Assembly: GCA_016218805.1 (NCBI GenBank) | Contig: JACRCW010000143.1 | Span: 1-52,711, forward strand | DNA length: 52,711 nt | Source of the DNA: Deltaproteobacteria bacterium | GTDB taxonomy: Bacteria; Myxococcota; JACRCW01 | Direction of reading: 5' to 3' | Shown: piece by piece, positions 1,213 to 34,235 of the stretch | Position numbering within the stretch: the first letter of the stretch is position 1 | Layout: each line of letters starts with the position of its first letter | Notes under the pieces: model-generated | Database searches by the model: none | Told to the model about the DNA's origin: nothing | The model's input: the letters and a program-made list of their open reading frames with translations, nothing else | Made by a program: the position numbers and the translations under genes

Positions 1213-3276
1213 ATGGTGGCCCCTTCCCGCACGCCCGACGAGACGCGCGCGCCCTCTCCCCCGCCCGAGCAGCTGGGCAAATACGCGCTGCTGGAGCGCA
1301 TTGGCGTGGGCGGCATGGCGGAGGTGTGGCTGGCGCGGGCGTCGGGCCCGGGGGGGTTTGCCAAGAGCTGCGTGGTGAAGATGGTGCGGCCCGGGGTGGA
1401 CCAGGCCCGCTTCAGCCGCATGTTCATGGATGAAGCGCGCCTGGCGGCGCTGCTCAACCACCCCAACATCGTGCAGCTGTTTGACTTCGGTGAGCACGAG
1501 GGGCGGCTCTTCATTGCCATGGAGTTTGTGCAGGGGCGCACGCTGCGGGCATTGATCAAGAAGTGCGAAACCAAGGGAATGCGCGTCCCGTTGGACCACG
1601 CCGCGCGCATCATGCTGAACGTGCTGGACGGGCTGCACCACGCGCACACGCTGGCGGACGAGCACGGTGACCCGCTGCGCGTCATCCACCGCGACGTGTC
1701 GCCCGAGAACATCATGATCACGTACTCGGGGGTGCCCAAGCTGCTGGACTTCGGCATTGCCAAGGCGACGTTGTCCACGGACCGCACGCGCGACGGGCGC
1801 GCCAAGGGCAAGCTCACGTACATGGCGCCCGAGCAGCTGATGGGGGCGCCGCTGGACCACCGCGTGGACCTCTACGCGGCGGGCACGCTGCTGTACGAGA
1901 CCTGCTGCGGCCGCCATCCGTTCCCTTTCCCCAGCGCAGAACAGCTGGCCCGCGCCATCCTGGATGACCCGGTGACGCCGCCGCAGAAGCTGGACCCCTC
2001 CCTGCCGGATGACCTGTGCGACATCATCATGAAGGCGCTGGAGAAGGACCCGGCCAACCGGTTTGGCTCCGCGGCGGACATGCGCGACGCGCTGGACGGG
2101 TTCCTGCAGACGCTGACGGTGAACACCGCGTTCCCGCGGCTGGACCAGCTGCTGGGCGCGGTGTGGCAGGAGGAGATGGCGGAGGACGCCTCACGCACGC
2201 GCAAGGCCACGGGCAGTTCCACGCAGCAGAGCCTGCCGCCGCGCGGCATCCCCGCCCTGGTGCCCGTGGGCAGCGACGCCGACGTGGAGGACGCCACCGT
2301 GCGCGATCCCCAGGCCAGCCGCGCCATGGCGGCGGCGGCTCAGGCGCTGTCCCACAGCCACCCGCGCGCGCAGCCGGCCACGCGGTCGGAGTTCGGCATC
2401 TCGGCCACGTCACAACCGGACTTTCCGCCGCCACCGCCGCTGCCCACCGGCGAGCAGCTGTTGTCCACGGATGACCGGCACCGTCTGGACCAGGTGTTCT
2501 CAGAGGCGGGCGGGCTGGCCCCGCGGCACCTGGAGCCCACCGGCCCCCTGGATGACGAGGTCATCACCGCGCGGCGCTTCCGCGAGGACAGCACGGCCAC
2601 GCCCATGCCGCCGCCGCGCGACGGGGCCGGCCGCGCCGCGCCGCCCTCTTTCACCGGGCCCATCCTGTCCGGGAACATGTGGCACGTGCCGCGGCGCGTG
2701 GGCATCAGCGGGCTGGTTTCGGCGGCCATGGCGTCAGGTGCGGTGTTTGGCGCCACGTTCTGGGTGTTGGGGCTGCGCCAGGGTCAGGGCCAGGTGCCGC
2801 TGCCCATGCCGCCGTCAGCCGGCGTGCTGCACGTGCTGGGGCGCGCGGGGTGCGCGCTGGAGTTGGACGGGCTGTCGCTCGCGCGCAGCCCGGTGGGGTC
2901 GGTGGAGGTGCCGCCCGGGGACCATTCGCTGGTGGCGCGGTGCCCCGGCAGTCCGGCGCAGGAGTTCCCCGTCCGGGGTGACCGGGACACGGTGGTGGTG
3001 CTGTCCGACCCGCCGCGCGGCGCGGACCGCCCGCGTGACCCCGCACCCGCGGCCCCGGCGAACGACCCCGCCGCCGACGAGGGTTACATTGTGGTGATGG
3101 CGCGCAAGCCGGCGAGCGTGTTTGTGGACGGGCGCCGGGTGGGTGACGTCCCGGACAAGCCGCTGGCCGTGCCGCCGGGCTCGCACGTGGTGCGCGTGGT
3201 GACGCGGGACAAAAAGGACCGCACCGTCACCGTGGAAGTGGCCCGGGGCAGGACCGCGACGGCGCGGTTCCCGTAG
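1213..3276 (+). CDS. Eukaryotic-like Ser/Thr protein kinase with Pro-rich linker, TM segment and C-terminal PEGA domain
   Basis: G-loop IGVGGMAEVW, VVKMV lysine, catalytic loop HRDVSPENIMIT, DFGIAKA, YMAPEQ. The C-terminus VVMARKPASVFVDGRRVGDVPDKPLAVPPGSHVVRVV is PEGA-like. Confidence 0.9.
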   Translation: MVAPSRTPDETRAPSPPPEQLGKYALLERIGVGGMAEVWLARASGPGGFAKSCVVKMVRPGVDQARFSRMFMDEARLAALLNHPNIVQLFDFGEHEGRLFIAMEFVQGRTLRALIKKCETKGMRVPLDHAARIMLNVLDGLHHAHTLADEHGDPLRVIHRDVSPENIMITYSGVPKLLDFGIAKATLSTDRTRDGRAKGKLTYMAPEQLMGAPLDHRVDLYAAGTLLYETCCGRHPFPFPSAEQLARAILDDPVTPPQKLDPSLPDDLCDIIMKALEKDPANRFGSAADMRDALDGFLQTLTVNTAFPRLDQLLGAVWQEEMAEDASRTRKATGSSTQQSLPPRGIPALVPVGSDADVEDATVRDPQASRAMAAAAQALSHSHPRAQPATRSEFGISATSQPDFPPPPPLPTGEQLLSTDDRHRLDQVFSEAGGLAPRHLEPTGPLDDEVITARRFREDSTATPMPPPRDGAGRAAPPSFTGPILSGNMWHVPRRVGISGLVSAAMASGAVFGATFWVLGLRQGQGQVPLPMPPSAGVLHVLGRAGCALELDGLSLARSPVGSVEVPPGDHSLVARCPGSPAQEFPVRGDRDTVVVLSDPPRGADRPRDPAPAAPANDPAADEGYIVVMARKPASVFVDGRRVGDVPDKPLAVPPGSHVVRVVTRDKKDRTVTVEVARGRTATARFP

Positions 3277-4938: not shown

Positions 4939-4999
4939 ACCGTGTCCACCCGCGTGCGGGGGAGGCGGGCGTCGCCAGTCGGCGGGTGGGGGATGGTTG

Positions 5000-5067
5000 C
5001 GGCCCGCCGGCCCCTCACCCGCGGCCCTGGCGGGCCGCGACCTCTCCCCGGCTCCGCCGGGGAGAGG
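5000..5067. terminator. Two GC-rich hairpins between convergent genes (putative bidirectional terminator)
   Basis: GCGGCCCGCC(5000-5009)/GGCGGGCCGC(5030-5039), and an 11-bp perfect stem CCTCTCCCCGG(5041-5051)/CCGGGGAGAGG(5057-5067) with a 5-nt loop. These lie between the SPFH stop (4938) and the ychF stop (5075). Confidence 0.35.
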
Positions 5068-5074
5068 TGTTGCA

Positions 5075-6181
5075 TCACACGTTGAACTTGAAGTGCATCA
5101 CGTCGCCATCCCGCACAACGTACTCCTTGCCCTCCATGGACATCTTGCCGTTGGCCTTGCAGGCGGCTTCGCTGCCGTACTTGAGCAGGTCCTCCCAGCC
5201 AATGACCTCCGCCTTGATGAACCCGCGTTCAAAGTCGCTGTGGATCTTCCCCGCCGCACCGGGCGCCTTGGTGCCACGCGTGATGGTCCACGCGCGGACT
5301 TCCTTTTCGCCGGCGGTGAAGAACGTGATGAGGTTCAGCAACGCGTAGCTCTCCCGCACCAGGCGGTTCAGCCCCGGCTCCTTGAGGCCCGCGTGGGAGA
5401 GGAACTCCGCCTGTTCCTCGCGCGGGAGCGCTTGCAGCTGCGCTTCCAGCTCCGCGCAGATGGGCACGCACGGGCTCCCCTGGGCACGCGCAATCTCCGC
5501 CACCTGCGCCACCAGCGGGTGCTTTCCCTCCAGCGCCGCGACGATCTCCGTCTCCTTCACGTTGGCCACGTACAACATCGCCCGCGCCGTCAGCAGGCAC
5601 AGCGACGCGAGCACCTCCCGGCCATCATCATCCAGCTTCATCTTGCGCGCGGGCACGCCCTTGCCCAGCTCCGCGCCAATGAACTCCGTGATCTCCGCCT
5701 GCTTCTTGTCCGCCGCCACGCCGCTCTTGGCCTTGCGCCGCACCGTCTCCAGCCGCTTCTCCACGGTGGCCAGGTCGGACAGCAGCAGCTCGGCCTCAAT
5801 GGTCTCAACATCGCGCTTGGGGTTCACGCTGCCGTCCACGTGCACCACGTTGTCATCCACAAAGCAGCGCACCACGTGCGCCACCGCGTCCGTCTCACGG
5901 ATGTGTGCCAGGAACTGGTTGCCCAGCCCTTCACCCTTGCTGGCGCCGCGCACCAACCCGGCAATGTCCACAAACTCGTAGGTGGCCGGCACCACGCTGG
6001 CGGGCTTCACCAGCGCGACGATACGGTCAAACCGGTCATCCGGGACCGGGACGACCCCCACGTTGGGTTCAATGGTGCAGAACGGGTAGTTGGCCGCCTG
6101 CGCCTGCGCGTTGCTGAGCGCGTTGAAGAGGGTGGACTTCCCAACGTTGGGAAGCCCGACGATGCCGCACTTGAATGCCAT
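5075..6181 (-). CDS. ychF: Ribosome-binding ATPase YchF (Obg-family P-loop GTPase/ATPase)
   Basis: MAFKCGIVGLPNVGKSTLFNAL...TITRGTKAPGAAGKIHSDFERGFIKAEV...FKFNV, 368 aa, with a GGAAGG RBS upstream. This is the C-terminal part of the long minus ORF 5075..8485; the rest of that ORF is antisense to the next gene. Confidence 0.9.
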   Translation of the reverse strand: MAFKCGIVGLPNVGKSTLFNALSNAQAQAANYPFCTIEPNVGVVPVPDDRFDRIVALVKPASVVPATYEFVDIAGLVRGASKGEGLGNQFLAHIRETDAVAHVVRCFVDDNVVHVDGSVNPKRDVETIEAELLLSDLATVEKRLETVRRKAKSGVAADKKQAEITEFIGAELGKGVPARKMKLDDDGREVLASLCLLTARAMLYVANVKETEIVAALEGKHPLVAQVAEIARAQGSPCVPICAELEAQLQALPREEQAEFLSHAGLKEPGLNRLVRESYALLNLITFFTAGEKEVRAWTITRGTKAPGAAGKIHSDFERGFIKAEVIGWEDLLKYGSEAACKANGKMSMEGKEYVVRDGDVMHFKFNV

Positions 6182-6301
6182 CTGCCTTCCTGGGTGGTCC
6201 GGGGGGGGCCCCGGGGGGCGCGCCTTGTGGCCCACACGCGCGCCACTTTCAACTGTGCCGGGGTGTCGCCGCCGGGCGCGCTCCGGTATGAGACCGCGCC
6301 C

Positions 6302-9300
6302 ATGGTCCGCGTGGTCGTCGCCGAGAAACCGTCCGTTGCCCGGGACATTGCCCAGGTGCTTGGCGCCAGGTCCCGCGGGGACGGTCATCTGCACGGCTCC
6401 GGTTGGGTGGTGACGTGGGCGTTGGGGCACCTGGTGACGCTGCCGCAACCGCACCAGGTGGACCGGGCGTGGAAGCCCTGGCGCTGGGAACGCCTGCCCA
6501 TGCTGCCGCGCCACTGGCCGCTGGCCGTGCTGGAGAAGACGGCGGATCAGTTTGCCGCGGTGAAGCGCCTCATCACCGGGCAGGACGTGGAGTACGTGGT
6601 GTGCGCCACAGATGCGGGGCGCGAGGGCGAGCTGATCTTCCGCTTCATCTACGACGCCGCCGGCTGTCGCGCGCCCACCCGGCGGTTGTGGATTTCGTCG
6701 CTGACGGCGGACGCCATCCGCCGCGGGTTCGCCGCGCTGCAGCCCGGCTCCGCGCGGGATGCGCTGGCTGAGGCCGCGCGCGGGCGCGCGCAGGCGGATT
6801 GGCTCGTCGGGATGAACCTGAGCCGCGCGTACTCGCTGGGACAGCAGGACGTGTTCAGCGTGGGCCGCGTGCAGACGCCCACGCTGGCCATGCTGGTGGA
6901 GCGCGAGAACGCCATCCGCGCCTTTGTCCCGGCGGATTACCTGGAGGTGGTGGCGAACTTCCGCGCGCCGGGCGGTGCGTACACCGGGCGGTGGTTCGCA
7001 CCCACGCCGGAGAAGGACCCGTTGAGCGCCCGCCGGCGCCTTCCCGCGGAGGGCCAACGTGCGGGGGACATTGCGGCGCGCGTGAACGCCGCGGGACGCG
7101 GCTGCGTGGAGCGCCTGGACGAGGAGACCCGGCGGATGCCGCCCCCGCAGCTGTACGACCTCACCGAGCTGCAGCGCCACGCCAACCGCCTGTTCGGCTT
7201 CAGCGCGGAGAAGACGCTGAACGTTGCGCAGTCCCTCTATGAGACGCACAAGCTGCTGAGCTACCCGCGCACCGACTCGCGCCACCTCTCCGCTGACGTC
7301 GCGGCCACGCTGCCCGCGGTGGTTGCCGCCATCGCGCATGCGTACCAGGGAGACCTGGCGCCGGACACGGGAGCCCGTCCGCTGGGACGCCGCCACGTGG
7401 ATGACACTGAGGTGACCGACCACCACGCGATCATCCCGACGACGGTTGACGCGCGCGCGCTTTCGCTCACGGCGGACGAGCGCAAGGTCTACGACCTGGT
7501 CTGCCGCCGCCTGCTGATGGCCTGGCACCCGGAGCACATCTGGGCGGTCACCAACGTCGTCACGCGGGTGGACACGCCGGCGGGGCCGGAGCGTTTCCAC
7601 AGCCACGGCACCGCGGTGCAACAGGTGGGGTTCAAGGTGCTGGACGTGCAGCGTCCCGGCGCAGCCCGGCGGGCACCCGGCCCGCGGGACGACGACGACG
7701 ACGATGCGGCGGACCAGGACCTGCCCGGCGGGCTGCAAACGGGGCTGGAAGTGGGCGCGGGCGGTGCCAAGGTGGAGCGCAAGCAGACCCGCCCGCCCAA
7801 GCGCTACACGGATGCCACGCTGCTCTCCGCCATGGAGGGTGCGGGCCGCATTGTGGAGGACAAGGAGCTGTCCCGCGCCATGAAGGACCGCGGCCTGGGC
7901 ACGCCCGCCACGCGCGCCGCCATCCTGGAGAACCTCATCAAGCGCGCATACGTGCAGCGGGACGGTCGCGCGCTGGCCGCCACGGACAAGGGCATTGATC
8001 TCATCGCCCGGGTGCATCCCGACGTGAAGAGCCCCGCCATGACGGGCGACTGGGAGGCGCAGCTCAAGGCGGTGGAACGCGGCCAGGGAACGCGCGCGGA
8101 GTTCATCCAGCGGGTGGAGACCTACGTCACCGACGTGGTGGGCCGCGTCCGCAATGACCCGGTGACCACGCGGCCCCCTCCCCCGCCCGCCGCCACTGCG
8201 GCCACGCGGAGCGTGTCGCTGGCCCAGCGTGACATGCAGGACCTCCTCACCCGCGTGTTCGGACACGCCCGCTTCCGCCCGCACCAGGAGGAGGTGTGCC
8301 GCGCCGTCGCGTCGGGGGACAACGCGCTGCTGGTCATGCCCACGGGCGCGGGCAAGTCGCTCTGCTACCAGTTGCCCGGGCTGTGCCGTGGTGGGACCAC
8401 GCTGGTCATCAGTCCGCTCATTGCGCTGATGGAGGACCAGGTGGCCAAGCTCCAGAGCCTGGGCCTGGCCGCGGAGCGCATCCACTCCGGGCGGGACCGC
8501 CCGGCGTCACGCGCGGCGTGTGAGGCCTACCTGCAGGGCACGTTGGACTTCCTGTTCATCGCGCCGGAGCGCCTGGCCGTGCCGGGGTTCCCGGAGCTGC
8601 TCGCCCGCCGCAAGCCTGCGCTCATTGCGGTGGATGAAGCGCACTGCATTTCGCAGTGGGGGCATGACTTCCGTCCTGACTACCGCATGCTGAGCCAGCG
8701 CCTGCCGCTGCTGCTGCCGGCCCCGGTGCTGGCGCTCACCGCCACCGCAACGCCGCGCGTGCAGCAGGACATTGTGGAGCAGCTGGGCATGGAGGCGCCG
8801 CGCCGCTTCATCCACGGTTTCCGACGGGAGAACCTGGCGTTGGAGCTGGTGGAAGTTCCCAAGCCGGCGCGGTTTGAAGCCGCGCTGCGCGCGCTGTCTG
8901 AGCCGGAGCGGCGCCCGGCGATTCTCTACGCGCCCTCGCGGGCGGACGCGGAGGAACTGGCGTCATTCCTGTCACCGCATTTTTCCGCGGCCGCCTACCA
9001 CGCCGGCATGACCGCGCGTGCGCGCGACACCACGCAGACCGCGTTCCAGGCCGGGAAGCTGGACGCGGTGGTGGCGACGATTGCGTTTGGCATGGGCATT
9101 GACAAGGCGGACATCCGTACCGTGGTGCACCTGGCCCTGCCGGTGAGCGTGGAGGGTTACTACCAGGAGGTGGGGCGCGCGGGGCGGGATGGCAAGCCGT
9201 CGCGTGCGGTGCTGATGCACTCCTACGTGGACCGGCGCATGCACCAGTTCTTCCGCGAAAAGACCTATCCACCGACGACGACGCTGGCGCAGCTGCTCAA

Positions 9301-10222
9301 GCGCGTCCCCGCGCATGGCATCCCGCGCGGGGAGCTGCGCGCGCGCGCGCGCCTGGATGAAGAGGAGTTTGACGCGGCGTTGGACAAGCTGTGGGTGCAC
9401 CGCGCCGTGACGGTGGACGCGGACGAAACCGTCCGCCCGACGGGCGCGCACTGGCAGCAGAGCTATGAGGCGCAGGTGGCGCACCGCATCCAGCAGGAGG
9501 AGGCGATTGCGCGGTTTGCGCAGGCGCACGGGTGCCGCATGCTCCGTCTGGTGCAGCACTTCGGGGACACGTCGGACCCTGGCACGCCGTGCGGGATGTG
9601 TGACGCGTGCGACCCCGGTGCGTGCACATCTCAGCAGTTCACGCCACCGGACGCGGCCGCGGTGGCGGGCATGCGCGCCATCCTTGGCCGGTTCCCGGGG
9701 TGGGGCGCCGTATCCCTTGGCGCGCTGTTCCGGGACGTGGAGACCGCCGTGGGTGATCGCCGTGCGTTTGAGATCCTGGTGTCCGCGCTGGTGCGCGCGG
9801 GCCTGGTGCACGCCGATGAGGCGGTGTTCCACAAGGTCGGGAAGGACATCACCTACCAACGCTTGGCGCTCACCCCTGACGGCGAAGCGGCGGACGACGC
9901 CATCCTGCGCGCCGTCCAGTTGCCGCGGGGCCTGGAGCCCACGGCCACACGGGGCCGGCGGCGCCGGACAAAAGCCCGGACGGAGCAGCCCGCGGCACCG
10001 GCGGACGGCGCGCTGGTGGAGCGCCTGCGCGAATGGCGCAAGAAGGAAGCGCACAAGCGCGGCGTGCCCGCGTTCCGCGTGATGGCGGACAAGGTGCTCC
10101 ACGAACTGGCCGCGCGCCGCCCCGCCGACGAGGAACAGCTGGAGCAGGTCAGCGGGGTGGGGACCGCGTTTGTGAAGAAATACGGCAAGGCGGTGCTGGG
10201 CCTGGTGGGCAGGCACCGCTGA
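6302..10222 (+). CDS. Single-ORF fusion: DNA topoisomerase III (type IA, N-terminal ~620 aa) + RecQ helicase (C-terminal ~680 aa, with Zn-binding and HRDC domains)
   Basis: TopoIII part: MVRVVVAEKPSVARDIA (TOPRIM Glu), ATDAGREGE (DxD), active-site LLSYPRTDSRHL. A linker follows (DPVTTRPPPPPAATAATRS). RecQ part: FRPHQEEV...MPTGAGKSLCYQLP (motif I), DEAHCISQWGHDFRPDY (DEAH), Zn motif CGMCDACDPGAC, and a C-terminal HRDC (LREWRKKEAHKRGVPAFRVMADKVLHELA). There is no stop between the two modules in the six-frame track. Confidence 0.85.
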   Translation: MVRVVVAEKPSVARDIAQVLGARSRGDGHLHGSGWVVTWALGHLVTLPQPHQVDRAWKPWRWERLPMLPRHWPLAVLEKTADQFAAVKRLITGQDVEYVVCATDAGREGELIFRFIYDAAGCRAPTRRLWISSLTADAIRRGFAALQPGSARDALAEAARGRAQADWLVGMNLSRAYSLGQQDVFSVGRVQTPTLAMLVERENAIRAFVPADYLEVVANFRAPGGAYTGRWFAPTPEKDPLSARRRLPAEGQRAGDIAARVNAAGRGCVERLDEETRRMPPPQLYDLTELQRHANRLFGFSAEKTLNVAQSLYETHKLLSYPRTDSRHLSADVAATLPAVVAAIAHAYQGDLAPDTGARPLGRRHVDDTEVTDHHAIIPTTVDARALSLTADERKVYDLVCRRLLMAWHPEHIWAVTNVVTRVDTPAGPERFHSHGTAVQQVGFKVLDVQRPGAARRAPGPRDDDDDDAADQDLPGGLQTGLEVGAGGAKVERKQTRPPKRYTDATLLSAMEGAGRIVEDKELSRAMKDRGLGTPATRAAILENLIKRAYVQRDGRALAATDKGIDLIARVHPDVKSPAMTGDWEAQLKAVERGQGTRAEFIQRVETYVTDVVGRVRNDPVTTRPPPPPAATAATRSVSLAQRDMQDLLTRVFGHARFRPHQEEVCRAVASGDNALLVMPTGAGKSLCYQLPGLCRGGTTLVISPLIALMEDQVAKLQSLGLAAERIHSGRDRPASRAACEAYLQGTLDFLFIAPERLAVPGFPELLARRKPALIAVDEAHCISQWGHDFRPDYRMLSQRLPLLLPAPVLALTATATPRVQQDIVEQLGMEAPRRFIHGFRRENLALELVEVPKPARFEAALRALSEPERRPAILYAPSRADAEELASFLSPHFSAAAYHAGMTARARDTTQTAFQAGKLDAVVATIAFGMGIDKADIRTVVHLALPVSVEGYYQEVGRAGRDGKPSRAVLMHSYVDRRMHQFFREKTYPPTTTLAQLLKRVPAHGIPRGELRARARLDEEEFDAALDKLWVHRAVTVDADETVRPTGAHWQQSYEAQVAHRIQQEEAIARFAQAHGCRMLRLVQHFGDTSDPGTPCGMCDACDPGACTSQQFTPPDAAAVAGMRAILGRFPGWGAVSLGALFRDVETAVGDRRAFEILVSALVRAGLVHADEAVFHKVGKDITYQRLALTPDGEAADDAILRAVQLPRGLEPTATRGRRRRTKARTEQPAAPADGALVERLREWRKKEAHKRGVPAFRVMADKVLHELAARRPADEEQLEQVSGVGTAFVKKYGKAVLGLVGRHR

Positions 10223-14667: not shown

Positions 14668-17600
14668 TCAGGCGCCCGGGCCCTTGCCGCCGCCCGGCTG
14701 CAGGTAGGGGTTCACGGAGATCATCGTCGCGCCGCCTTCGGGCTCAGCCTCCGGGGTGGGGGGCGCCACGGCGGGGCGCGGGCCGGGGGTGGGCGTGGGT
14801 TCCGCGGGCAGGGCCACGCCCGCCTCCAGCAGGGCGCGGGTGAGGCGGTCCACGCGCCCCTGCAGCGCCTGCATCCGGCCCAGGGACTCGCGGCGGATGG
14901 CATCGCGCTCCACGCGCGCCTTCTGGGCTTCCGCGCGCAGCGCCTCCACCTCGCGCCCCGCCTGCGAGGCTTGGGTTGCCTGCTGGGCGGAGGCTGCCGC
15001 GCGGGTCTCCGCGTCCTTGTACTTCTCCTCAAACTGCCGGAGCTTCTGCAGCGCCTGCTGGCGCAGTTTCTCCTTGTCGTCCTGGGCCTGGCGGGCAGCG
15101 GCCTCCGCCCGCCCGCGCGCGGCGTCCAACTCGGCCACGCGTTTCTTGAGCTCATCGCGCTCATTGGCGGCCTGCTGGGTGACGGTCTCCAGGCGGCCCT
15201 GCACCTCAGCCACGTGGTCCTTGCCGGCGCGGTCCGCCTGCTCCACGGCTTTCTGCAGTTCCTGCGCACGCCGCTCCAGCTGCTGCGCCTTGGCCACCAG
15301 CTGGGTGCGCGCGCGCTCCAGTTCCTCGCGCTCACGGGTCCGCGCGCCCAGGTCCGCTTCCAGCTGGGCGGCCCGTTCACGCTCCGCGGCGTGCGCGGCC
15401 TCCAGCTGCGTGCGGGCCAGCGTCTCCTGTTCCAGGCGCGCTTGCGCGCGCTCCACCTCGTGCTGCTTGTCCTCAATCTTCTTGCGCGCCGTCTCCAGGG
15501 ACGCGGCGGTCTCCTTCTGCGCGGCCTCGGCGCGGGAGCGCTCCTCCAGGGACTTCTGCCGCAGGCCGCCCTCGGTGGAGCGCGCGGCCTTCTGCGCCTC
15601 CAGCTCGGCGCGCAGCTCATTGACGGACTCCTCCAGCTCCGTCTTCTGCAGGCTCATCACCTGGTGGGAATTCTCCAGCTGGGCCACCCGGCCGCGCGTC
15701 TCCACCAGCTGCCGGTTGAGCGCCGCCTCGCGCGCGGTGACGTCCTTGCGCTCGCGGACCTGCTCGTGGGTCGCATCCTCCAGCTGCTTGATGCGGTCCT
15801 TCAGCTGGGAGGCGGTCTGCGCGTTGTCGTCACGTTCCTTGCGTGCCTGCGCCAGTTCGTCGGCCACCCCGCGTGCGCGCTCCGCCTCCGCGCGTGCCTG
15901 GCGTTGTGCCTCGGCCACCGCGGCCTGCGCCTTCTCCCGCACCTGCTGTTCGCTGGCCTGCACCGCGCGCAGCTTGTCGGCGCGTTCGCCGGCCAGTGTC
16001 TCGGCCTGCTTGAGGGCCACCTGGAGTTCGCCCAGGCGGACCTGCAGTCCCTCGCGCTCCGTCTTGAGGGCCTGCATGGCCTGGCCCGCCTGACCCTGGA
16101 CGCGCTCACCGTCGGCCTGCAGGCGTTGCAGGTCCGCCGCCACGGCGGAGGCCTCGGCCAGCGCGCGCTGTGCCTCCTCCAGTTCGCGCTCGCGGCTGCG
16201 CGCGTGCTCGTCGCGCTCGCGCAGGCGCGCTTCCAGCGCCTTGAGGGCCTGGTCGCGCTGCGAAATCGCCTCGCCCAACCGCTGCATCTCCGCCTGCGTC
16301 TGGCTCAGGGCCCGGGTGTTCTCGCCCTGCCGGCCGGCCAACTCCGCCTCGGCCTGCTGGGCGCCGGCCAGCAGCGCCTTGAGGCGCGCCACCTCGGATG
16401 ACAACTCGCGCGCGGAGGCGCGCGCCTCGTCCAGCTCCGCCTGCAGGCGCGCCAGCGCATCCCGGGCCTGGTCGCGCTCTTCGGCGCGCGCGGCCACGGC
16501 CCGCCGCTCGCCCTCCAGTTCCTGCGCGGCGGACGCCAGGCGCGCCTGCAGCCGCTCCACCTCCGCGGCGCGCGTCTCCAGGTCCGCCTCCCGCGCGCGG
16601 ACGGCGGCGCGGGCGTCCTCCAGCTCCCGCCGCGCCGCGGCCACCTGCGCCTCGCGCGCGGCCAGGTCCACCTGCAGGACCTTCTCGCGCGCCTCCACCT
16701 CACCGCGCTCCCGCTCCACGTCACGGACCTGCGCCTCCAGCGCCTGCAGGCCCGCGTCCCGCTGCGCCACCTCCTGCCGCAGGCGCGCGGCCCCGGCCCG
16801 CTCCTCCTCAATGCGCGCCTGCAGGCCGCGCTCCCGGTCAGCCTGCGTGCGCACATCCTCGTCGGCCTTCAGCAGGGACTGTTCCAGCCCCTCAATGGCG
16901 GCCTGCTTGTCGGCCAGCTGCCCCTTGAGCCCGGCCATCTCCTCGTTGAGGTGGACAATGTCCGCCTGCAGCCCGCGGAGGTCCCGCTCCTTTTGTTGGA
17001 TGGCGGCGTGCGCCTCATTGAGGCGCCCGCGCTGGGCCTGGAACGCCTCGTCACCGCGGGTGACCTGCTGGTGCAGCAGCTGCCGCCCCTGTTCCAGCTC
17101 CTCAATCTCCCCCACCTTGCGCTGGACGGAGGCCTCCAGGTTCTTGAGCTCCAGCGCGCGCGCACGCAGTGCCTCCTGCTGCGCGTTGATCTCCTCCTGG
17201 AGGCGCTCCACCTCCTCGGTGCGGGCGCGAACCTCCGCCCGCAGCGCGGTGAGCTGCCCATCGCGCTGCACCAGCGTGTGCTCGCGGTCCTCCAGGCGGA
17301 TGTTCAACGCACGCAGCTGCGCCTGCTCCGCCCCCAGCGCGCTGTCCAGCGCGGCGTGCGCCTCCGCGGCCTCATCCAGTTTCTGCCCCAGCTCGCGCAG
17401 CGAAAGGTCCCGCGCCTCAATCTGCTTCTCCAGGCCGGCGCGGCGCTCGTTGGCCAGCGCCAGCTTGTTGGACTCGTCGGCCAGCCGGCGCTCCAACTCG
17501 CCCAGGCGCGCCTCGCGCTCGCGCATGGCGGTCTCTGCCGCCTCCTGCATGCGGCGGGTCTCGCCCTCCTGGTTGGACTGGACGTCCTTGGCCTCCTCCA

Positions 17601-19524
17601 GCCGCAGCTCGCGGCCGTGCAGCTCGTCCTGCAGGCGTTCCACGTCCGCGGTCAGCCCGTGGATGCGGTCCTCCAGGGCGGCGGTGTCCCGCAGGCGCAC
17701 GTGGTTCACTGCGCCGGTGGCGGCGCGCGCTGCCACCACGTCTTCCTCCAGCTCGCGGACCAGTTGCTCCGCCGCCAGCGTCTCGCGGTCCAGCAGCGCC
17801 TGCAGTGCCTGCCGTTCCTCGCTCTCGCGCCGGTGCAGGACGGTGAGCCGGGCAATCTCGTCGTCGCGCTCGGCGATGGCGCGGACCAGCCACGCCTCCA
17901 CGCGGCGCATGCGGTCGTGCCAGGCCGCCCGGGCGTTGTCCGCGCAGTGCAGGGCCTGCTCGGCGGCCAGCATGTCGTCGTGGAAGTCGCGCTCACGCTG
18001 GCGCAGCGTGCGCTCCAGCTGGCGGGTGCGCGCGGACAGGTCATGGATGCGCGCGTACAGCACGCCGCGGGTCAGCGTGACGGCGTGGAACAGTTCCCGG
18101 CTGTCGGCGGTCTCCTCATCGCGCGAGCGCAGCAGCACCGCCACGCGCGTCTCAGCGCGGGCCAGCGCGGTGCGCGCCTGGTGCAGGGCACCGCGCGTGT
18201 CATCCAGGCGCTGGTAGAGGTCCCCCAGGATGCCGGCGCCGTGCGCCACGGTGCGTTGCAGGCGTGCGTCCAGCTCGCGGTACGCGCCCTCCCACTCGTA
18301 GATGCGGGCGACGAGTTGCTGCTTCATCGTCTCCGCGGCGGCTTCCAGCTCGCGGCGCTCGCGGCGCAGCGCAAACACCTCCTTCTCCTTGGCCGCCACA
18401 ACCTCAATGAGGTCCTTCTCCATCATCACGCGCTCGGTGAGCATGCCCTCCACCGACGCGCCAAGCTCCTTCTCCTTGTCCGCCAGCGCCGCCTGCAGCC
18501 GCTGCACCTCACGGGTCAGCTCGTTCATTTGGACTATGTAGCTCTCAACCTCGCTCTCCTTCTGCGCGACGCGCGACTCCGCGCCCTGGATTTCCGCCTC
18601 CTTGGCGCGCCACAGGCGGGCCAGCCGCTGCAAGTCCCGCTCGCGTTCACGCAGCTTGTCCCGGAGGAACTGCGTGCGGGAGTCCGCGGCCTCCTGGGAC
18701 CCGCGCGCCCCCGTCCCCAAGGCGTCCGTGGCCACGTCCGCAAACCCGCCCGCGCCCAGCGAGCCGAACAACCGCTCCACACACGCGAGCTCAGTGGGAT
18801 CCACCGCGGGGCCGCCGCGGCCCGCGGAGGGCGCGCCCGGACGGGGCAGGCCCGGGTCCACGCCGGGCGGCGCCGGCAGGCCCGCCGTGACCGCCGCGGC
18901 CGGCGCCTCCAGGGCGTCCAGTCCGCCGGCCAGCTCATCCGCGGAGGGCATCTCCATCCCGGGGTCCGTGACCTCCGGCAGCGGGGGCAGCGGCGGCAGG
19001 TCCGCGGTGGGGTCCCGCTCCGGGATGGCCACGTCCGCCATGGCGCTCTGCACCCACGGGCCGCCCGGAGACACGCTGCGCCGCAGCCGCGGCGGCTCCA
19101 TGGGCCCGCCGCCCGCGGCCTCCACCAGCGCGCGGTGGCTCTGGGCGCGCTCCGCCAGGCTGCGGATGGCCGTCTCCAGGTCCGCACGTGAGGCGGGCAG
19201 CATCAGGTAGTGGTCCGCGCGTGCAGGTGACCCGCGGTGCCGCTCCACGGCGTCACGCGTGGCGTCAGAAGTGGTCAGCAGGATGGGCAGCGCCTTGTGC
19301 TGCGCGTTCTTGCGCAACCGCCCCACCAGCGCAAAACCCGTCGCCCCGCTGCGCTCGTGCCGCAGCATCACAATGTCCGGCCGGATGCGGTCCACCTCCT
19401 CGGTGGGGTCGGACCCCGCAAACACCACGACGTCCAGCTCCAGCCCGTCGATCTCGCGCAACGCCGCTTCCTGCGAGCGGGCCGTGCCGCTGTCCGGTTC
19501 GGCGAGGAGGACGGTGAGCGCCAT
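14668..19524 (-). CDS. AglZ/FrzS-like protein: N-terminal pseudo-receiver domain + ~1450-aa Glu/Arg/Ala-rich coiled coil
   Basis: MALTVLLAEPDSG...RPDIVMLRHERSG...LPILLTTSD has a receiver fold, but the phospho-acceptor Asp position is Arg (DIVMLR) and the acidic pair is EPD. The remainder is a continuous heptad-like ER/QA-rich coiled coil. The C-terminus is a Pro-rich tail ...PEPEGGATMISVNPYLQPGGGKGPGA. Confidence 0.75.
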   Translation of the reverse strand: MALTVLLAEPDSGTARSQEAALREIDGLELDVVVFAGSDPTEEVDRIRPDIVMLRHERSGATGFALVGRLRKNAQHKALPILLTTSDATRDAVERHRGSPARADHYLMLPASRADLETAIRSLAERAQSHRALVEAAGGGPMEPPRLRRSVSPGGPWVQSAMADVAIPERDPTADLPPLPPLPEVTDPGMEMPSADELAGGLDALEAPAAAVTAGLPAPPGVDPGLPRPGAPSAGRGGPAVDPTELACVERLFGSLGAGGFADVATDALGTGARGSQEAADSRTQFLRDKLRERERDLQRLARLWRAKEAEIQGAESRVAQKESEVESYIVQMNELTREVQRLQAALADKEKELGASVEGMLTERVMMEKDLIEVVAAKEKEVFALRRERRELEAAAETMKQQLVARIYEWEGAYRELDARLQRTVAHGAGILGDLYQRLDDTRGALHQARTALARAETRVAVLLRSRDEETADSRELFHAVTLTRGVLYARIHDLSARTRQLERTLRQRERDFHDDMLAAEQALHCADNARAAWHDRMRRVEAWLVRAIAERDDEIARLTVLHRRESEERQALQALLDRETLAAEQLVRELEEDVVAARAATGAVNHVRLRDTAALEDRIHGLTADVERLQDELHGRELRLEEAKDVQSNQEGETRRMQEAAETAMREREARLGELERRLADESNKLALANERRAGLEKQIEARDLSLRELGQKLDEAAEAHAALDSALGAEQAQLRALNIRLEDREHTLVQRDGQLTALRAEVRARTEEVERLQEEINAQQEALRARALELKNLEASVQRKVGEIEELEQGRQLLHQQVTRGDEAFQAQRGRLNEAHAAIQQKERDLRGLQADIVHLNEEMAGLKGQLADKQAAIEGLEQSLLKADEDVRTQADRERGLQARIEEERAGAARLRQEVAQRDAGLQALEAQVRDVERERGEVEAREKVLQVDLAAREAQVAAARRELEDARAAVRAREADLETRAAEVERLQARLASAAQELEGERRAVAARAEERDQARDALARLQAELDEARASARELSSEVARLKALLAGAQQAEAELAGRQGENTRALSQTQAEMQRLGEAISQRDQALKALEARLRERDEHARSRERELEEAQRALAEASAVAADLQRLQADGERVQGQAGQAMQALKTEREGLQVRLGELQVALKQAETLAGERADKLRAVQASEQQVREKAQAAVAEAQRQARAEAERARGVADELAQARKERDDNAQTASQLKDRIKQLEDATHEQVRERKDVTAREAALNRQLVETRGRVAQLENSHQVMSLQKTELEESVNELRAELEAQKAARSTEGGLRQKSLEERSRAEAAQKETAASLETARKKIEDKQHEVERAQARLEQETLARTQLEAAHAAERERAAQLEADLGARTREREELERARTQLVAKAQQLERRAQELQKAVEQADRAGKDHVAEVQGRLETVTQQAANERDELKKRVAELDAARGRAEAAARQAQDDKEKLRQQALQKLRQFEEKYKDAETRAAASAQQATQASQAGREVEALRAEAQKARVERDAIRRESLGRMQALQGRVDRLTRALLEAGVALPAEPTPTPGPRPAVAPPTPEAEPEGGATMISVNPYLQPGGGKGPGA

Positions 19525-25170: not shown

Positions 25171-26556
25171 ATGGAGATGCTGGGACCTTACGCGCTCATT
25201 GACCCGCTGGGGTCCGGCAGCCTGTGCGACGTGTGGCGCGCGGTGCGGCCGGAGGAAGCGCGGCGGGCCCGCTGGCTGGCGGTCAAGCGTCCCAAGCCGG
25301 CCGTGGCGGCCGAACGCGCGTTCGTGGACACCTGGCTGACGCTGGCGCGCACCGCCATGGTCATCCAGCACCCGTTTGTGGTCCCCATCCTGGATGCGGG
25401 CGAGTTCCAGGCGCCGCAAGGCGGCCCGCCGCAGCCCGTGGTGGTGACCGAGGCCGTCACCGGCGCAGCGCTCAACGCGCTGCTCAATCACCTGATGACC
25501 AAGACGCGGGACATCCCGCGCGCGTTTGCGCTGGAGGTGGTGCACCGCGTGCTGGAGGGCCTGGTCCACGTCCACGCCGCCACGGACCCCACCACGGGCG
25601 CGCCGCTGGTCCACGGGGACGTGTGCCCCGCCAATGTGATGGTCTCCATGGACGGCCGCGTGCGCCTGTGTGACCCGGTGCTGGGCCGCGCACGGACCGC
25701 GCTCAGCCGGTTGGAGAACCAGGCGCTGCGCTTCCGCTGGCACTACATGGCGCCCGAAGAGGCCCGCGGCGCCACCCCGGACGCGCGCGCGGACCTGTAC
25801 GCGGTGGGCGTCATGCTGCATGAGATGCTCACCCAGCGGCGCATGCGCCGTGCCAACCGGCCTGAGGAGTTCCAGCAGCTGGTGGCCGCCGGCACCTGGA
25901 CGCCGCTGCAGCAGCTCAACATCCCCACGGACAACGGTCTGGACACGCTGCTGTTCCGCGCGCTGGCCCCGGACCCGGCGGCCCGCTACCCCACCGCGGC
26001 GGCGTTCCTGGCGGACGCGGAGGCGCACATGCGCGCGTTTGGCGTGGAGGTGCCGGCCGCGGCCACCGCGTCCGTCATGGCGCAGGCTTTCCCGCAGGTC
26101 CTACCGGCGGAGGAGACCGCCCGGGCGTTGGCGCGCTCGCTGGCGCCCGCCCCCACCGCTCCCGCCGAAGACGCGCCGGGGGAAGCGGCCCCCGCCGGCC
26201 GGCCGCGCCCAGCGGGGAGACGCAAACCGCCGTCGGATACTGGCAAGAAGCTCCTGATGGCTGTGGGCGGCCTGGCGCTGATGGGGGCGCTGGGCGCCGG
26301 CGTCATCTGGCTGGTGGGACGCCGGCCGGAGACCGCGGCGCGCCCCGCCGCGCCGGTGGAAGCCCCGCGCGACCTGACGCACCTGGTGGGCGGGCGCACG
26401 CAGCAGCACTGGACGGAGCGCCTGGCGGAGATGGACAAGGCGCTGGAAACCGCGCGCCGCGAGGAGCCGGGCCGGGTGCCGGCCATGGAGGCGCTCCGCG
26501 CGGACCTGGTCCGCAAGGGGCAGGCGCTGGGCCTCAAAGGCTACGGCGGGGAGTGA
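25171..26556 (+). CDS. Ser/Thr kinase-like protein with degenerate catalytic motifs (possible pseudokinase), one TM segment
   Basis: Kinase fold: LGSGSLCDVWRA (G-loop), WLAVKRP (Lys), YMAPEE. The catalytic loop is VHGDVCPANVMV (HRD->HGD, Lys->Cys), and DFG is replaced by LCDPV. A TM segment (LLMAVGGLALMGALGAGVIWLV) precedes a C-terminal tail. Confidence 0.8.
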   Translation: MEMLGPYALIDPLGSGSLCDVWRAVRPEEARRARWLAVKRPKPAVAAERAFVDTWLTLARTAMVIQHPFVVPILDAGEFQAPQGGPPQPVVVTEAVTGAALNALLNHLMTKTRDIPRAFALEVVHRVLEGLVHVHAATDPTTGAPLVHGDVCPANVMVSMDGRVRLCDPVLGRARTALSRLENQALRFRWHYMAPEEARGATPDARADLYAVGVMLHEMLTQRRMRRANRPEEFQQLVAAGTWTPLQQLNIPTDNGLDTLLFRALAPDPAARYPTAAAFLADAEAHMRAFGVEVPAAATASVMAQAFPQVLPAEETARALARSLAPAPTAPAEDAPGEAAPAGRPRPAGRRKPPSDTGKKLLMAVGGLALMGALGAGVIWLVGRRPETAARPAAPVEAPRDLTHLVGGRTQQHWTERLAEMDKALETARREEPGRVPAMEALRADLVRKGQALGLKGYGGE

Positions 26557-32665: not shown

Positions 32666-32674
32666 GGCATCACC

Positions 32675-34234: not shown

Positions 34235-34235
34235 G

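What the first reader, a model, noticed from the sequence alone, without database searches (positions are those of the whole stretch)
6302..10222. Natural single-polypeptide fusion of topoisomerase III and RecQ helicase (a one-gene 'dissolvasome')
One uninterrupted 1306-codon ORF encodes a complete type IA topoisomerase (TOPRIM Glu and DxD, active-site SYPRTDS tyrosine). A Pro/Ala linker joins it to a complete RecQ (Walker A, DEAH, Zn-binding Cys4, HRDC). RecQ and Topo III normally act together as separate proteins (bacterial RecQ-TopB, Sgs1-Top3, BLM-TopoIIIalpha-RMI) to dissolve double Holliday junctions and resolve converging forks. A covalent fusion would hard-wire that partnership. The order is topo-then-helicase, the reverse of reverse gyrase (helicase-then-topo). 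It is divergently transcribed from ychF. I cannot tell from the sequence whether this window's genome also carries stand-alone recQ or topB copies.
Basis: partly seen in the sequence, partly recalled or inferred. Interest (0 to 1): 0.85.

Follow-up and report, generated by a model that had tools for sequence, protein, structure and literature searches.

The report
Natural topoisomerase III–RecQ helicase fusion
One real 1306-codon gene joins a complete topoisomerase III to a complete RecQ helicase through a floppy linker; the fusion is conserved in many soil and sediment bacteria, which argues that the two enzymes work as a unit in bacteria.

Summary
Window 6302-10222 (+) is one uninterrupted 1306-codon ORF with uniform coding statistics across the junction.

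- **N-terminal half:** a Topo III-type type IA topoisomerase that passes the NCBIfam topB cut-offs. It has E8, Y321 and the decatenation-loop region.
the acidic motif is D104-x-G106-x-E108, not DxD. This is normal for this TopB subfamily.
- **C-terminal half:** a RecQ-family helicase with Walker A, DEAH, the aromatic loop, Cys4 and HRDC. It also has an extra winged helix inserted before the zinc module.

It is not an assembly artefact. At least 120 full-length homologs (53-68% identical) keep both catalytic sets invariant. At 50% clustering, 46 of the best 150 representatives are fusions, always topoisomerase first. They come from Acidobacteriota (including the isolate Solibacter usitatus), Myxococcota, Oligoflexus and Zetaproteobacteria.

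The linker is variable (29-159 aa) and rich in Pro/Gly/Ala. AlphaFold gives two confident modules with no fixed interface.

The gene sits among housekeeping genes with no conserved neighbour. It is not a Dpd defence gene and not a reverse gyrase.

The most likely function is a tethered RecQ-Topo III strand-passage machine. Ten literature searches found no description of it. Databases call it "DNA topoisomerase 3" or "RecQ". I rate it a new variant of a known kind, interest about 0.6.

The parts
6302..10222 (+). Whole Topo III-RecQ fusion gene (1306 codons plus stop)
   Evidence: ORF and translation. Continuous GC3 of about 0.9 through the junction. Identical to an NCBI protein annotated 'DNA topoisomerase 3 [Deltaproteobacteria bacterium]' on a 52,711-bp contig.
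6311..6700 (+). TOPRIM domain (aa 4-133) with catalytic E8 and acidic motif D104-x-G106-x-E108
   Evidence: Pfam Toprim, E 3.9e-10. E8, D104, G106 and E108 are invariant in 120 homologs.
6758..8110 (+). Type IA topoisomerase core (aa 153-603), including active-site Tyr321 (codon 7262-7264)
   Evidence: Pfam Topoisom_bac, 346 bits. Aligns to E. coli Topo III residues 2-611. Y321 is invariant. The AF2 model matches 1i7d/2o19 with target TM 0.75-0.80.
7838..7888 (+). Region aligned to the E. coli Topo III decatenation loop (aa ~513-529, GAGRIVEDKELSRAMKD)
   Evidence: Aligns to E. coli Topo III residues ~502-519 with one gap. Mean conservation 0.87 across the fusions. Low pLDDT at 505-527 fits an exposed, flexible loop. 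The loop's coordinates in E. coli come from my own knowledge (Li et al. 2000).
8156..8236 (+). Inter-module linker (aa ~619-645), rich in Pro/Ala/Thr
   Evidence: Lowest conservation (0.22) and highest gap fraction (0.58) in the protein. The equivalent segment is 29-159 aa (median 49) in 120 homologs, rich in P/G/A/S. pLDDT is below 50 at 625-636. It takes the place of the C-terminal tail of stand-alone TopB, since the topB profiles stop matching at 602/669 and 618/706.
8276..9193 (+). RecQ helicase core: RecA-like lobes 1 and 2 (DEAD aa 659-822, Helicase_C aa 859-964) with Walker A K685, DEAH 778-781, aromatic loop SQWGHDFRPDY and motif VI R959/R962
   Evidence: Pfam. The aligned stretches score 301 bits against the E. 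coli RecQ core (1oyw, chain residues 14-345) and 291 bits against the C. sakazakii RecQ core (4tmu, 34-375). Motif residues are invariant.
9266..9448 (+). Extra winged-helix domain inserted between RecA lobe 2 and the Zn module (aa ~989-1049)
   Evidence: About 65 extra residues relative to E. coli RecQ. Weak SelB-wing_2 hit at 1006-1031. AF2 predicts three helices plus a beta wing with pLDDT above 90. Gap-free in all fusions and present in the stand-alone orthologs.
9455..9616 (+). RecQ zinc-binding module (aa ~1052-1105) with C1078, C1097, C1100 and C1103
   Evidence: Pfam RecQ_Zn_bind. Aligns to E. coli RecQ 369-406. The four Cys are invariant in alignment A1.
9653..9871 (+). C-terminal winged-helix (RQC-like) domain with a long beta hairpin (aa ~1118-1190)
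   Evidence: AF2 model elements H494-505, H515-526, H529-541, E545-554 and E557-566 in model numbering; add 624 for protein numbering. The Foldseek alignment spans whole RecQ catalytic cores: 591-610 columns against targets of 511-516 residues. There is no Pfam RQC hit, so the assignment rests on predicted structure only.
9899..10006 (+). Basic, variable linker before HRDC (aa ~1200-1235)
   Evidence: Low conservation, 0.30-0.35. 42-106 aa in homologs, rich in A/R/K/P. pLDDT below 50.
10010..10207 (+). HRDC domain (aa 1237-1302)
   Evidence: Pfam HRDC, E 3.4e-21. Present in 119 of 120 close homologs.

Best explanation
This is a genuine, expressed-as-one-chain bifunctional enzyme. A Topo III-type type IA topoisomerase has lost its own C-terminal DNA-binding tail. 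It is tethered by a disordered Pro/Gly/Ala-rich linker to a full RecQ-family helicase.

Inferred mechanism:
1. The RecQ module recognises branched or forked DNA through its winged-helix, Zn and HRDC elements.
2. It uses ATP to translocate 3'->5' and open duplex DNA.
3. This feeds single-stranded DNA to the Topo III module held at high local concentration and 1:1 stoichiometry.
4. Topo III cleaves one strand through Tyr321, passes another strand or duplex through the gate, and reseals.

The net result would be decatenation or unlinking of recombination and late-replication intermediates: hemicatenanes, double Holliday junctions, converging forks and precatenanes. This would happen without crossovers. 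In other words, it is a hard-wired version of the RecQ + Topo III (+SSB) strand-passage reaction of E. coli, and of the Sgs1-Top3 and BLM-TOP3A pairing in eukaryotes.

Shown: the gene, both domain sets, conservation of both active sites, the flexible tether, the housekeeping context and the wide distribution.

Inferred: the enzymatic activities, the substrates and the coupling.
For: The gene is real and continuous.

Both halves pass curated family cut-offs. They align end-to-end with E. coli Topo III and with the RecQ core. Predicted folds match Topo III (target TM 0.75-0.80) and RecQ/BLM cores.

E8, D104, E108, Y321, K685, DEAH, R959/R962 and Cys4 are invariant in 120 homologs at 53-68% identity. 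They are kept in nearly all full-length fusion representatives down to about 40% identity. So both activities are under purifying selection.

The region aligned to the Topo III-specific decatenation loop is retained and conserved.

The linker varies from 29 to 159 aa, is poorly conserved and is predicted disordered. AF2 on aa 1-985 gives pLDDT 83.5 but pTM only 0.58. This fits a tether, not a rigid machine.

The fusion recurs in several phyla and is always topoisomerase first.

Independent genomic linkage of the two partners exists in Listeria, where recQ and topB are adjacent with a 24-bp gap.

The context is chromosomal housekeeping: ychF, rsmB, NAD kinase and MoxR/DUF58.

The two-protein reaction is documented for E. 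coli (Harmon 1999; Suski & Marians 2008) and for eukaryotes, as cited in the reviews read. An engineered Top3-Sgs1 fusion study exists (Bennett & Wang 2001, listed as a reference; its content is from my own knowledge).
Against: - No biochemical or genetic data exist for any member.
- pTM is only an indirect measure of inter-module contacts. No PAE or coordinates were available.
- The RecQ half is a divergent subfamily with an extra winged helix, and it fails the canonical recQ equivalog cut-off. Its substrate preference may differ from that of E. coli RecQ.
- The same RecQ subfamily is also found alone and fused to Ser/Thr kinases. The helicase therefore has roles that do not need a covalently attached topoisomerase.
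- At least one lineage (P0175) keeps the topoisomerase site but has lost the helicase motifs. So ATP-driven unwinding is not indispensable for every member.
- No RMI1-like or SSB partner was found next to the gene.
Confidence: 0.7

Rival explanations
1. Artefact: two adjacent genes (topB and recQ) were merged by a sequencing or assembly error, or by a MAG chimera at the junction.
For: The window is a metagenome-assembled contig. Adjacent recQ and topB genes do exist in nature, as in Listeria.
Against: - GC3 runs through the junction without a break, and the other frames are closed.
- At least 120 independently assembled homologs have the same continuous ORF, including an isolate genome (Solibacter usitatus, P0097).
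- Seven further species-representative genomes have uninterrupted ORFs.
- The Met at the start of the RecQ part is not conserved (9 of 120), and no Shine-Dalgarno sequence sits at a usable distance upstream of it.
Confidence: 0.02
2. Reverse-gyrase-like machine: the helicase module acts as a nucleotide-dependent switch, not as a real helicase, and drives the topoisomerase to change supercoiling directionally in an ATP-dependent way.
For: It is, like reverse gyrase, an SF2 ATPase covalently joined to a type IA topoisomerase. A weak TIGR01054 rgy hit covers the topoisomerase part. The member P0175, with a dead helicase, shows the helicase module can have a non-catalytic role.
Against: - The domain order is reversed.
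- The rgy model scores 93 against a cut-off of 472.
- The helicase is a complete RecQ with Zn, WH and HRDC, not the minimal helicase-like module with a latch.
- The linker is long, variable and disordered, and pTM is 0.58.
- No reverse gyrase structure appears among the 50 best Foldseek matches to the aa 1-985 model.
- The genome is about 70% G+C with myxobacterial-type content, and its relatives are soil and sediment bacteria. Reverse gyrase is described only from thermophiles (PMC2647321). No growth temperature is known for this organism.
Confidence: 0.07
3. Anti-phage defence component (a DpdF-type helicase of a Dpd 7-deazaguanine DNA-modification system, or another defence helicase).
For: The PADLOC model PDLC02865 'DpdF' (1499 positions) matches the whole protein at 1536 bits. 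Other DpdF, PsyrT and BrxH models hit the RecQ half.
Against: - The curated NCBIfam DpdF equivalog scores 207 against a cut-off of 550.
- Several of the other PADLOC 'DpdF' models are about 610 positions long and match only the helicase half. I take them to be over-inclusive RecQ-like models, but I did not test them against a canonical RecQ.
- Neighbours are housekeeping genes, with no dpd, restriction-modification or mobile-element genes.
- No neighbour is shared among eight fusion loci.
- No plasmid in PLSDB carries the fusion.
Confidence: 0.03
4. Only one module is functionally relevant. For example, a RecQ that uses an inert topoisomerase domain as a DNA-binding or targeting module, or the reverse.
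For: P0175 and, in part, P0154 have degenerate helicase motifs with an intact topoisomerase site.
Against: In the window protein and in nearly all other full-length members, both catalytic sets are strictly conserved.
Confidence: 0.08

Closest known systems
E. coli RecQ + Topoisomerase III (+SSB) two-protein strand-passage system (Harmon, DiGate & Kowalczykowski 1999; Suski & Marians 2008)
   Same: The same two enzyme families are involved. The topoisomerase half aligns to E. coli Topo III over its residues 2-611, including the decatenation-loop region. The helicase core aligns to E. coli RecQ over its residues 14-345 (stretch score 301 bits) and keeps Cys4 and HRDC. The expected chemistry is helicase-generated ssDNA used by a type IA strand-passage enzyme.
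   Different: - Here the two are one polypeptide; in E. coli they are separate, unlinked gene products bridged functionally by SSB.
- The topoisomerase lacks its own C-terminal tail.
- The topoisomerase belongs to the PRK07726 (DxGxE) subfamily.
- The RecQ belongs to a subfamily with an extra winged helix, and it fails the canonical recQ equivalog cut-off.
Eukaryotic dissolvasome (Sgs1-Top3-Rmi1; BLM-TOP3A-RMI1/2)
   Same: A RecQ-family helicase physically coupled to a Topo III. In eukaryotes the topoisomerase is bound at the helicase's N-terminal region (PMC3905885). That gives the same N-to-C topology as this fusion.
   Different: The coupling is non-covalent and needs an OB-fold RMI1 subunit. 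No RMI1-like partner or conserved neighbour was seen here. The Foldseek match to the TOP3A-RMI1 structure (4cgy) is only a fold-level match to the topoisomerase module.
Engineered Top3-Sgs1 fusion proteins (Bennett & Wang, PNAS 2001)
   Same: A covalent Topo III-RecQ-helicase chimera built to test whether proximity is the main role of the Sgs1 N-terminus. The natural protein is the evolutionary equivalent of that experiment.
   Different: The engineered protein is artificial and from yeast. I could not read the paper here; it appears only as a reference, so details are from my own knowledge.
Reverse gyrase
   Same: It is the only well-described natural covalent fusion of an SF2 ATPase with a type IA topoisomerase (PMC2647321).
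   Different: - The order is opposite: helicase-like module N-terminal, topoisomerase C-terminal.
- Its helicase-like module is not a RecQ and lacks Zn/WH/HRDC.
- It has tight inter-domain coupling and makes positive supercoils.
- It is restricted to thermophiles.
- The rgy model scores 93 against a cut-off of 472 here.
Listeria monocytogenes recQ-topB gene pair
   Same: The two partners are genomically linked: adjacent, same strand, 24-bp gap. Listeria TopB has the same DAGREG motif.
   Different: They are two separate genes in the order recQ then topB. The RecQ is of ordinary length (590 aa).

Membership tests
Type IA topoisomerase, Topo III (TopB) subfamily | Curated profile match above cut-off | tested here: met
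   NF005829 scores 657 against 597. TIGR01056 topB scores 566 against 516. Pfam Topoisom_bac scores 346 bits.
Type IA topoisomerase, Topo III (TopB) subfamily | Active-site tyrosine in a (S/T)YPR(T/S)D context, and the TOPRIM glutamate | tested here: met
   Y321 and E8 are invariant in 120 homologs. They align to the E. coli Topo III ITYPRSD and AEKPS motifs.
Type IA topoisomerase, Topo III (TopB) subfamily | Acidic DxDxE metal-binding cluster | tested here: inconclusive
   The motif is D104-A-G106-R-E108, so the second Asp is Gly. Listeria TopB and 33 of the 62 nearest stand-alone TopB representatives have the same variant. It is therefore a subfamily trait, not a sign of decay. Its effect on metal binding was not tested.
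Type IA topoisomerase, Topo III (TopB) subfamily | Topo III-specific decatenation loop | tested here: met
   aa ~513-529 align to the E. coli Topo III loop region with one gap and are conserved. The function of the loop is from my own knowledge.
Type IA topoisomerase, Topo III (TopB) subfamily | Toroidal four-domain fold | tested here: met
   The AF2 model (pLDDT 83.5) matches 1i7d, 2o19 and 1d6m with target TM 0.75-0.80.
Type IA topoisomerase, Topo III (TopB) subfamily | Relaxation and decatenation activity | not testable with these tools
   Needs purified protein.
RecQ-family helicase | SF2 motifs including Walker A, DEAH, motif VI and the RecQ aromatic-rich loop | tested here: met
   K685, D778-E-A-H781 and R959/R962 are invariant. 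SQWGHDFRPDY is present. TIGR00614 recQ_fam scores 370 against 220.
RecQ-family helicase | Zn-binding Cys4 module | tested here: met
   C1078, C1097, C1100 and C1103 are invariant. Pfam RecQ_Zn_bind scores 28.5 against 25.
RecQ-family helicase | Winged-helix (RQC) domain after the Zn module | tested here: inconclusive
   There is no Pfam RQC hit. AF2 predicts a WH with a long beta hairpin at aa ~1118-1190, and Foldseek aligns over whole RecQ cores. This is a prediction only.
RecQ-family helicase | HRDC domain | tested here: met
   Pfam HRDC, E 3.4e-21.
Canonical bacterial RecQ (equivalog TIGR01389 / PRK11057) | Score above the equivalog cut-off | tested here: not met
   486 against 640, and 387 against 1015. 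An insertion of about 65 aa (extra WH) lies between the helicase core and the Zn module. In an unbootstrapped NJ tree this subfamily sits nested among the seven canonical RecQs sampled, closest to an alphaproteobacterial one.
Reverse gyrase | N-terminal helicase-like module followed by a C-terminal Topo IA; rgy profile above cut-off | tested here: not met
   The order is reversed. TIGR01054 scores 93 against 472. No reverse gyrase is among the top 50 Foldseek hits.
DpdF (Dpd DNA-modification defence system) | DpdF equivalog score above cut-off, and dpd gene neighbourhood | tested here: not met
   NF041063 scores 207 against 550. Neighbours are housekeeping genes and none is conserved. The PADLOC PDLC02865 hit probably reflects a model built from such fusions.
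Eukaryote-type dissolvasome (RecQ-Top3-RMI1) | OB-fold RMI1-like third subunit | not tested
   No conserved neighbour was found in eight loci. A genome-wide search was not possible.

The most novel reading that the evidence does not exclude
The Topo III-RecQ fusions are an uncharacterised, phylum-spanning class of bacterial genome-maintenance enzyme. The covalent tether, together with loss of the topoisomerase's own C-terminal tail and gain of an extra winged helix in the helicase, creates an activity that neither separate enzyme has. Examples would be processive ATP-coupled decatenation or hemicatenane dissolution without SSB or RMI1, or directional supercoiling. On this reading it is a mesophilic, inverted-order counterpart of reverse gyrase. 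It would also be Rosetta-stone evidence that RecQ and Topo III act as one unit in bacteria.
Probability: 0.2. Interest if true: 0.8.

Novelty: new variant of a known kind. Interest (0 to 1): 0.6.

Why it matters
RecQ helicases and Topo III cooperate from bacteria to humans. A recent paper still states that Topo III's role in suppressing inappropriate recombination "remains poorly defined in prokaryotes" (abstract of PMC13244152).

A fusion that is conserved across several phyla, with both active sites under selection, is strong evolutionary evidence that the two enzymes work as one unit in bacteria.

It also offers a minimal, single-chain system with fixed 1:1 stoichiometry. That system could be used for structural and single-molecule work on how helicase translocation is coupled to type IA strand passage. 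Such work is hard with multi-subunit BTR/STR complexes.

It gives a natural comparison to reverse gyrase, with the opposite domain order and a flexible coupling.

On the practical side, these proteins are annotated only as "DNA topoisomerase 3" or "RecQ", and a PADLOC "DpdF" model matches them. Annotation and defence-system pipelines therefore mislabel them.

Tried and rejected
- **Literature.** Ten full-text searches on Topo III/RecQ/fusion/Acidobacteria/Myxococc*/dissolvasome/reverse gyrase terms, plus reading four topoisomerase or RecQ papers, found no description of a natural Topo III-RecQ fusion. The library omits most subscription journals, so this is absence of evidence only. Bennett & Wang 2001 could not be opened.
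- **Structure of aa 1-1200.** The job failed. It was replaced by aa 625-1306 and aa 1-985.
- **Conserved neighbourhood.** None of the window's neighbours (ychF, SPFH, DUF58, MoxR, RsmB, NADK) flanks the fusion in other fusion loci, apart from a generic Ser/Thr-kinase similarity in L002. No neighbour family is shared among the eight loci. The ychF adjacency is incidental.
- **Adjacent topB next to stand-alone orthologous RecQs.** None within 6 kb.
- **Plasmid or mobile origin.** No PLSDB record covers 80% or more of the protein.
- **Defence (Dpd) reading.** Rejected.
- **Internal translation start for a separate RecQ.** Met645 is not conserved, and no Shine-Dalgarno sequence sits at a usable distance upstream.
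- **Apparent loss of the active-site Tyr in L005.** This is a masked run of N in the collection, not a deletion.
- **Single or multiple origin of the fusion.** An NJ tree of the RecQ parts interleaves fused and stand-alone sequences on very short internal branches. Some "stand-alone" representatives may be gene fragments, so the question stays unresolved.

Full report

Yes. The reading frame holding the gene is open from 4997 to 10222 on the + strand. The translation shows that the protein proper starts at the ATG at 6302 (MVRVVVAEKPSVARD...) and ends at the stop at 10220-10222, giving 1306 aa. Sequence upstream of 6302 in that frame is the antisense of ychF (5075-6187, minus strand).

In the frame of the ORF, G+C at the third codon position is 0.82-0.95 in every 60-codon block from 6362 to 10142. 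The block covering the junction (8162) scores 0.93. The two other frames contain stops between 8000 and 8400. The sequence gives no hint of a frameshift or stop at the junction.

**2. What are the two halves?**

Pfam finds Toprim (aa 4-133), Topoisom_bac (153-603, 346 bits), DEAD (659-822), Helicase_C (859-964), RecQ_Zn_bind (1055-1103) and HRDC (1237-1302).

*The topoisomerase half:*
- It passes both NCBIfam Topo III subfamily models: NF005829 scores 657 against 597, and TIGR01056 scores 566 against 516.
- It aligns with E. coli Topo III over that enzyme's residues 2-611 (E 2e-91).
- The alignment includes the stretch that in E. coli forms the Topo III-specific decatenation loop. Query 513-529 (GAGRIVEDKELSRAMKD) matches E. 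coli GIARFVQDKDLKKILRAT. The loop's role is from my own knowledge.
- The topB profiles stop matching at positions 602/669 and 618/706. The C-terminal tail of stand-alone Topo III is therefore absent, and the linker plus RecQ take its place.

*The RecQ half:*
- It passes the RecQ-family model TIGR00614 (370 against 220) but not the canonical recQ equivalog TIGR01389 (486 against 640).
- It aligns with the E. coli RecQ core over residues 14-345 (stretch score 301 bits). After about 65 extra residues, it aligns again with the Zn-binding region 369-406.

An AlphaFold2 model of aa 625-1306 was built on 46 fusion sequences and scored pLDDT 87.3 and pTM 0.78. It shows:
- The extra residues form a winged-helix domain (aa ~989-1049) inserted between RecA lobe 2 and the Zn module.
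- A second winged helix with a long beta hairpin follows (aa ~1118-1190).
- Then comes a disordered basic linker, then HRDC.
- Foldseek matches the model to RecQ catalytic cores (4tmu, 1oyw, 4q47) and to BLM (4cgz).

**3.

The acidic TOPRIM motif is T-D104-A-G106-R-E108-G-E, not DxD. The Gly is invariant in all 120 close homologs. The same DAGREG/DSGREG motif is found in Listeria TopB and in 33 of the 62 nearest stand-alone TopB representatives; the search pattern was not found in the other 29, some of which are fragments. It is a trait of this TopB subfamily and not a sign of inactivation.

**4. Is it an artefact?**

No.
- The window protein is itself in NCBI as "DNA topoisomerase 3 [Deltaproteobacteria bacterium]".
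- The 120 best hits of a 5.8-billion-protein search are all fusions of 1251-1486 aa with the same Pfam set. The 119 other than the window protein itself are 53-68% identical to it.
- They come from many independent assemblies and include the isolate Solibacter usitatus Ellin6076.
- In a MAFFT alignment of these 120, the catalytic residues E8, D104, E108, Y321, K685, D778-E-A-H781, R959 and R962 are invariant; a few flanking motif positions vary. The four Zn cysteines are invariant in a 46-sequence subset.
- In the exhaustive search of 50%-identity representatives (query aa 1-1200), 46 of the best 150 are fusions, with identity down to about 35%. Topoisomerase precedes RecQ in all 46.
- Nearly all full-length fusion representatives keep both catalytic sets.
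- Seven loci from species-representative genomes carry uninterrupted fusion ORFs with all motifs. They come from Solibacteraceae, Bryobacterales, an unclassified Acidobacteria MAG, Oligoflexus, an uncultured proteobacterium and Polyangiaceae. In L005 the active-site stretch is masked as N.
- A divergent member is annotated as coming from Zetaproteobacteria.

**5. The join.**

The segment between the last conserved topoisomerase helix and RecQ motif 0 is the least conserved part of the protein (conservation 0.22, gap fraction 0.58).
- It is 29-159 aa long (median 49) in the 120 homologs and rich in P, G, A and S.
- An AF2 model of aa 1-985 has well-folded modules (pLDDT 83.5) but pTM of only 0.58, with pLDDT below 50 at 625-636.
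- Its Foldseek hits are Topo III structures (target TM 0.75-0.80) and, separately, RecQ cores. No solved structure spans both modules, and no reverse gyrase is in the top 50.
- This points to a flexible tether rather than a rigid inter-domain machine. pTM is only an indirect measure.
- Met645 at the start of the RecQ part is not conserved (9 of 120), and no Shine-Dalgarno sequence sits at a usable distance upstream of it. There is no sign of an internal start.

**6. Context.**

The neighbours are housekeeping genes: a Ser/Thr kinase, an SPFH protein, ychF (divergent), DUF58/MoxR, rsmB and NAD kinase. Further along are a nuo operon, a GGDEF regulator and more kinases.
- None of the window's neighbours flanks the fusion in other fusion loci, apart from a generic Ser/Thr-kinase similarity in L002, and no neighbour family is shared among the eight loci.
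- No PLSDB plasmid carries the fusion.
- The window holds no second topB or recQ.

**7. Relatives of the halves.**

- The insert-bearing RecQ subfamily also exists as a stand-alone gene, about 50% identical over aa 644-1302. It occurs in Acidobacteriaceae, Ktedonobacteraceae and Polyangiaceae, with no topoisomerase gene within 6 kb.
- One Polyangiaceae MAG has both a fusion (L013) and a stand-alone paralog (L018). A fusion can therefore coexist with a separate RecQ.
- In an NJ tree, the insert-bearing subfamily groups together, nested among the seven canonical RecQs sampled and closest to an alphaproteobacterial one. Fused and stand-alone members interleave on short branches. Whether the fusion arose once or several times is unresolved.
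- In Listeria monocytogenes, recQ and topB are adjacent genes with a 24-bp gap, in the order recQ then topB. This is an independent case of genomic linkage.

**8. Rivals.**

- *Dpd defence.* A PADLOC model called DpdF (PDLC02865, 1499 positions) matches the whole protein at 1536 bits. Against this, the curated DpdF equivalog scores 207 against 550, and there are no dpd neighbours. Several other PADLOC "DpdF" models are about 610 positions long and match only the helicase half, which looks over-inclusive, though I did not test them against a canonical RecQ. I conclude that PDLC02865 was built from such fusions, and I reject the defence reading.
- *Reverse gyrase.* Rejected as a family: the order is reversed, the rgy model scores 93 against 472, the helicase is a complete RecQ, and the linker is flexible. 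A reverse-gyrase-like emergent activity cannot be excluded without biochemistry.

**9. Mechanism (inferred).**

1. RecQ binds branched DNA and unwinds it 3'->5' using ATP.
2. The tethered Topo III lacks its own C-terminal DNA-binding tail. It captures the ssDNA that RecQ produces and carries out Tyr321-mediated strand passage.
3. The result is unlinking of hemicatenanes, double Holliday junctions, converging forks or precatenanes.

This is the E. coli RecQ + Topo III reaction and the eukaryotic Sgs1-Top3 / BLM-TOP3A logic (reviews read), with proximity and stoichiometry fixed by a peptide bond. Placing the topoisomerase N-terminal to the helicase mirrors the eukaryotic arrangement, in which Top3 binds the N-terminal region of Sgs1.

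**10. Novelty.**

Ten full-text searches and several reviews gave no description of a natural Topo III-RecQ fusion. Databases name these proteins generically. The components and their partnership are well known, and the family is large. I therefore rate it a new variant of a known kind, with interest about 0.6. The literature check is limited to open-access texts.

Noticed in passing
P0194 (1400 aa) and P0196 (1037 aa), representatives: The same insert-bearing RecQ subfamily also occurs fused to an N-terminal Ser/Thr protein kinase. P0194 is Pkinase + 9 Sel1 repeats + RecQ + HRDC; P0196 is Pkinase + RecQ + HRDC. This is another unusual RecQ fusion, possibly signalling-controlled.
   Followed up: partly
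P0175 (1193 aa; NCBI, 4.5-kb contig): This fusion member has an intact topoisomerase active site, but its helicase motifs are degenerate: Walker A K->A, DEAH->E-S-x-E, motif VI R->V/N. Cys4 is retained, and there are no DEAD or Helicase_C Pfam hits. It looks like a pseudo-helicase version. P0154 is partly degenerate.
   Followed up: partly
L081 3980-5752 (recQ) and 5776-7929 (topB), Listeria monocytogenes NZ_LR134400.1: recQ and topB are adjacent on the same strand with a 24-bp gap, in the order recQ then topB. The record is filed as a 594-kb 'plasmid' and may be mislabelled chromosomal sequence.
   Followed up: partly
window 6302-10222; PADLOC model PDLC02865: A PADLOC 'DpdF' HMM of 1499 positions matches the whole Topo III-RecQ fusion at 1536 bits. 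The model appears to be built from such fusions and could produce spurious DpdF labels.
   Followed up: partly
window 9266-9448 (aa ~989-1049): An extra winged-helix domain is inserted between RecA lobe 2 and the Zn module of the RecQ half. It is conserved in all fusions and in the stand-alone orthologs. Its function is unknown.
   Followed up: partly
L013 and L018 (Polyangiaceae MAG JAVTWR01): The same genome carries a fusion and an unlinked stand-alone RecQ of the same subfamily. This fusion has an 82-aa longer linker, and no HRDC match was found; it ends in a basic tail. P0050 (Myxococcota) has no HRDC in its precomputed Pfam list.
   Followed up: partly
L014 6031-8382 (Acidobacteriaceae): The stand-alone RecQ ortholog has a second HRDC-like stretch after the first.
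   Followed up: no
window 14668-19524 (-): A 1618-aa ORF with strong coding statistics (GC3 0.92) but no Pfam hit at E <= 0.001.
   Followed up: no
window 1213-3276, 25171-26556, 47949-49694; 41545-47874: There are three Ser/Thr kinases, two of them with PEGA domains, and a 2109-aa Big_9/cadherin-like protein. Together with about 70% G+C and a nuo operon (31250-36062), this looks like a myxobacterial-type chromosome.
   Followed up: no
window 7688-7705 (aa 463-468): A run of six Asp (DDDDDD) lies in a variable, disordered topoisomerase loop (aa 448-473; 12-37 aa in homologs). It aligns to the acidic RDEEND stretch of E. coli Topo III.
   Followed up: no
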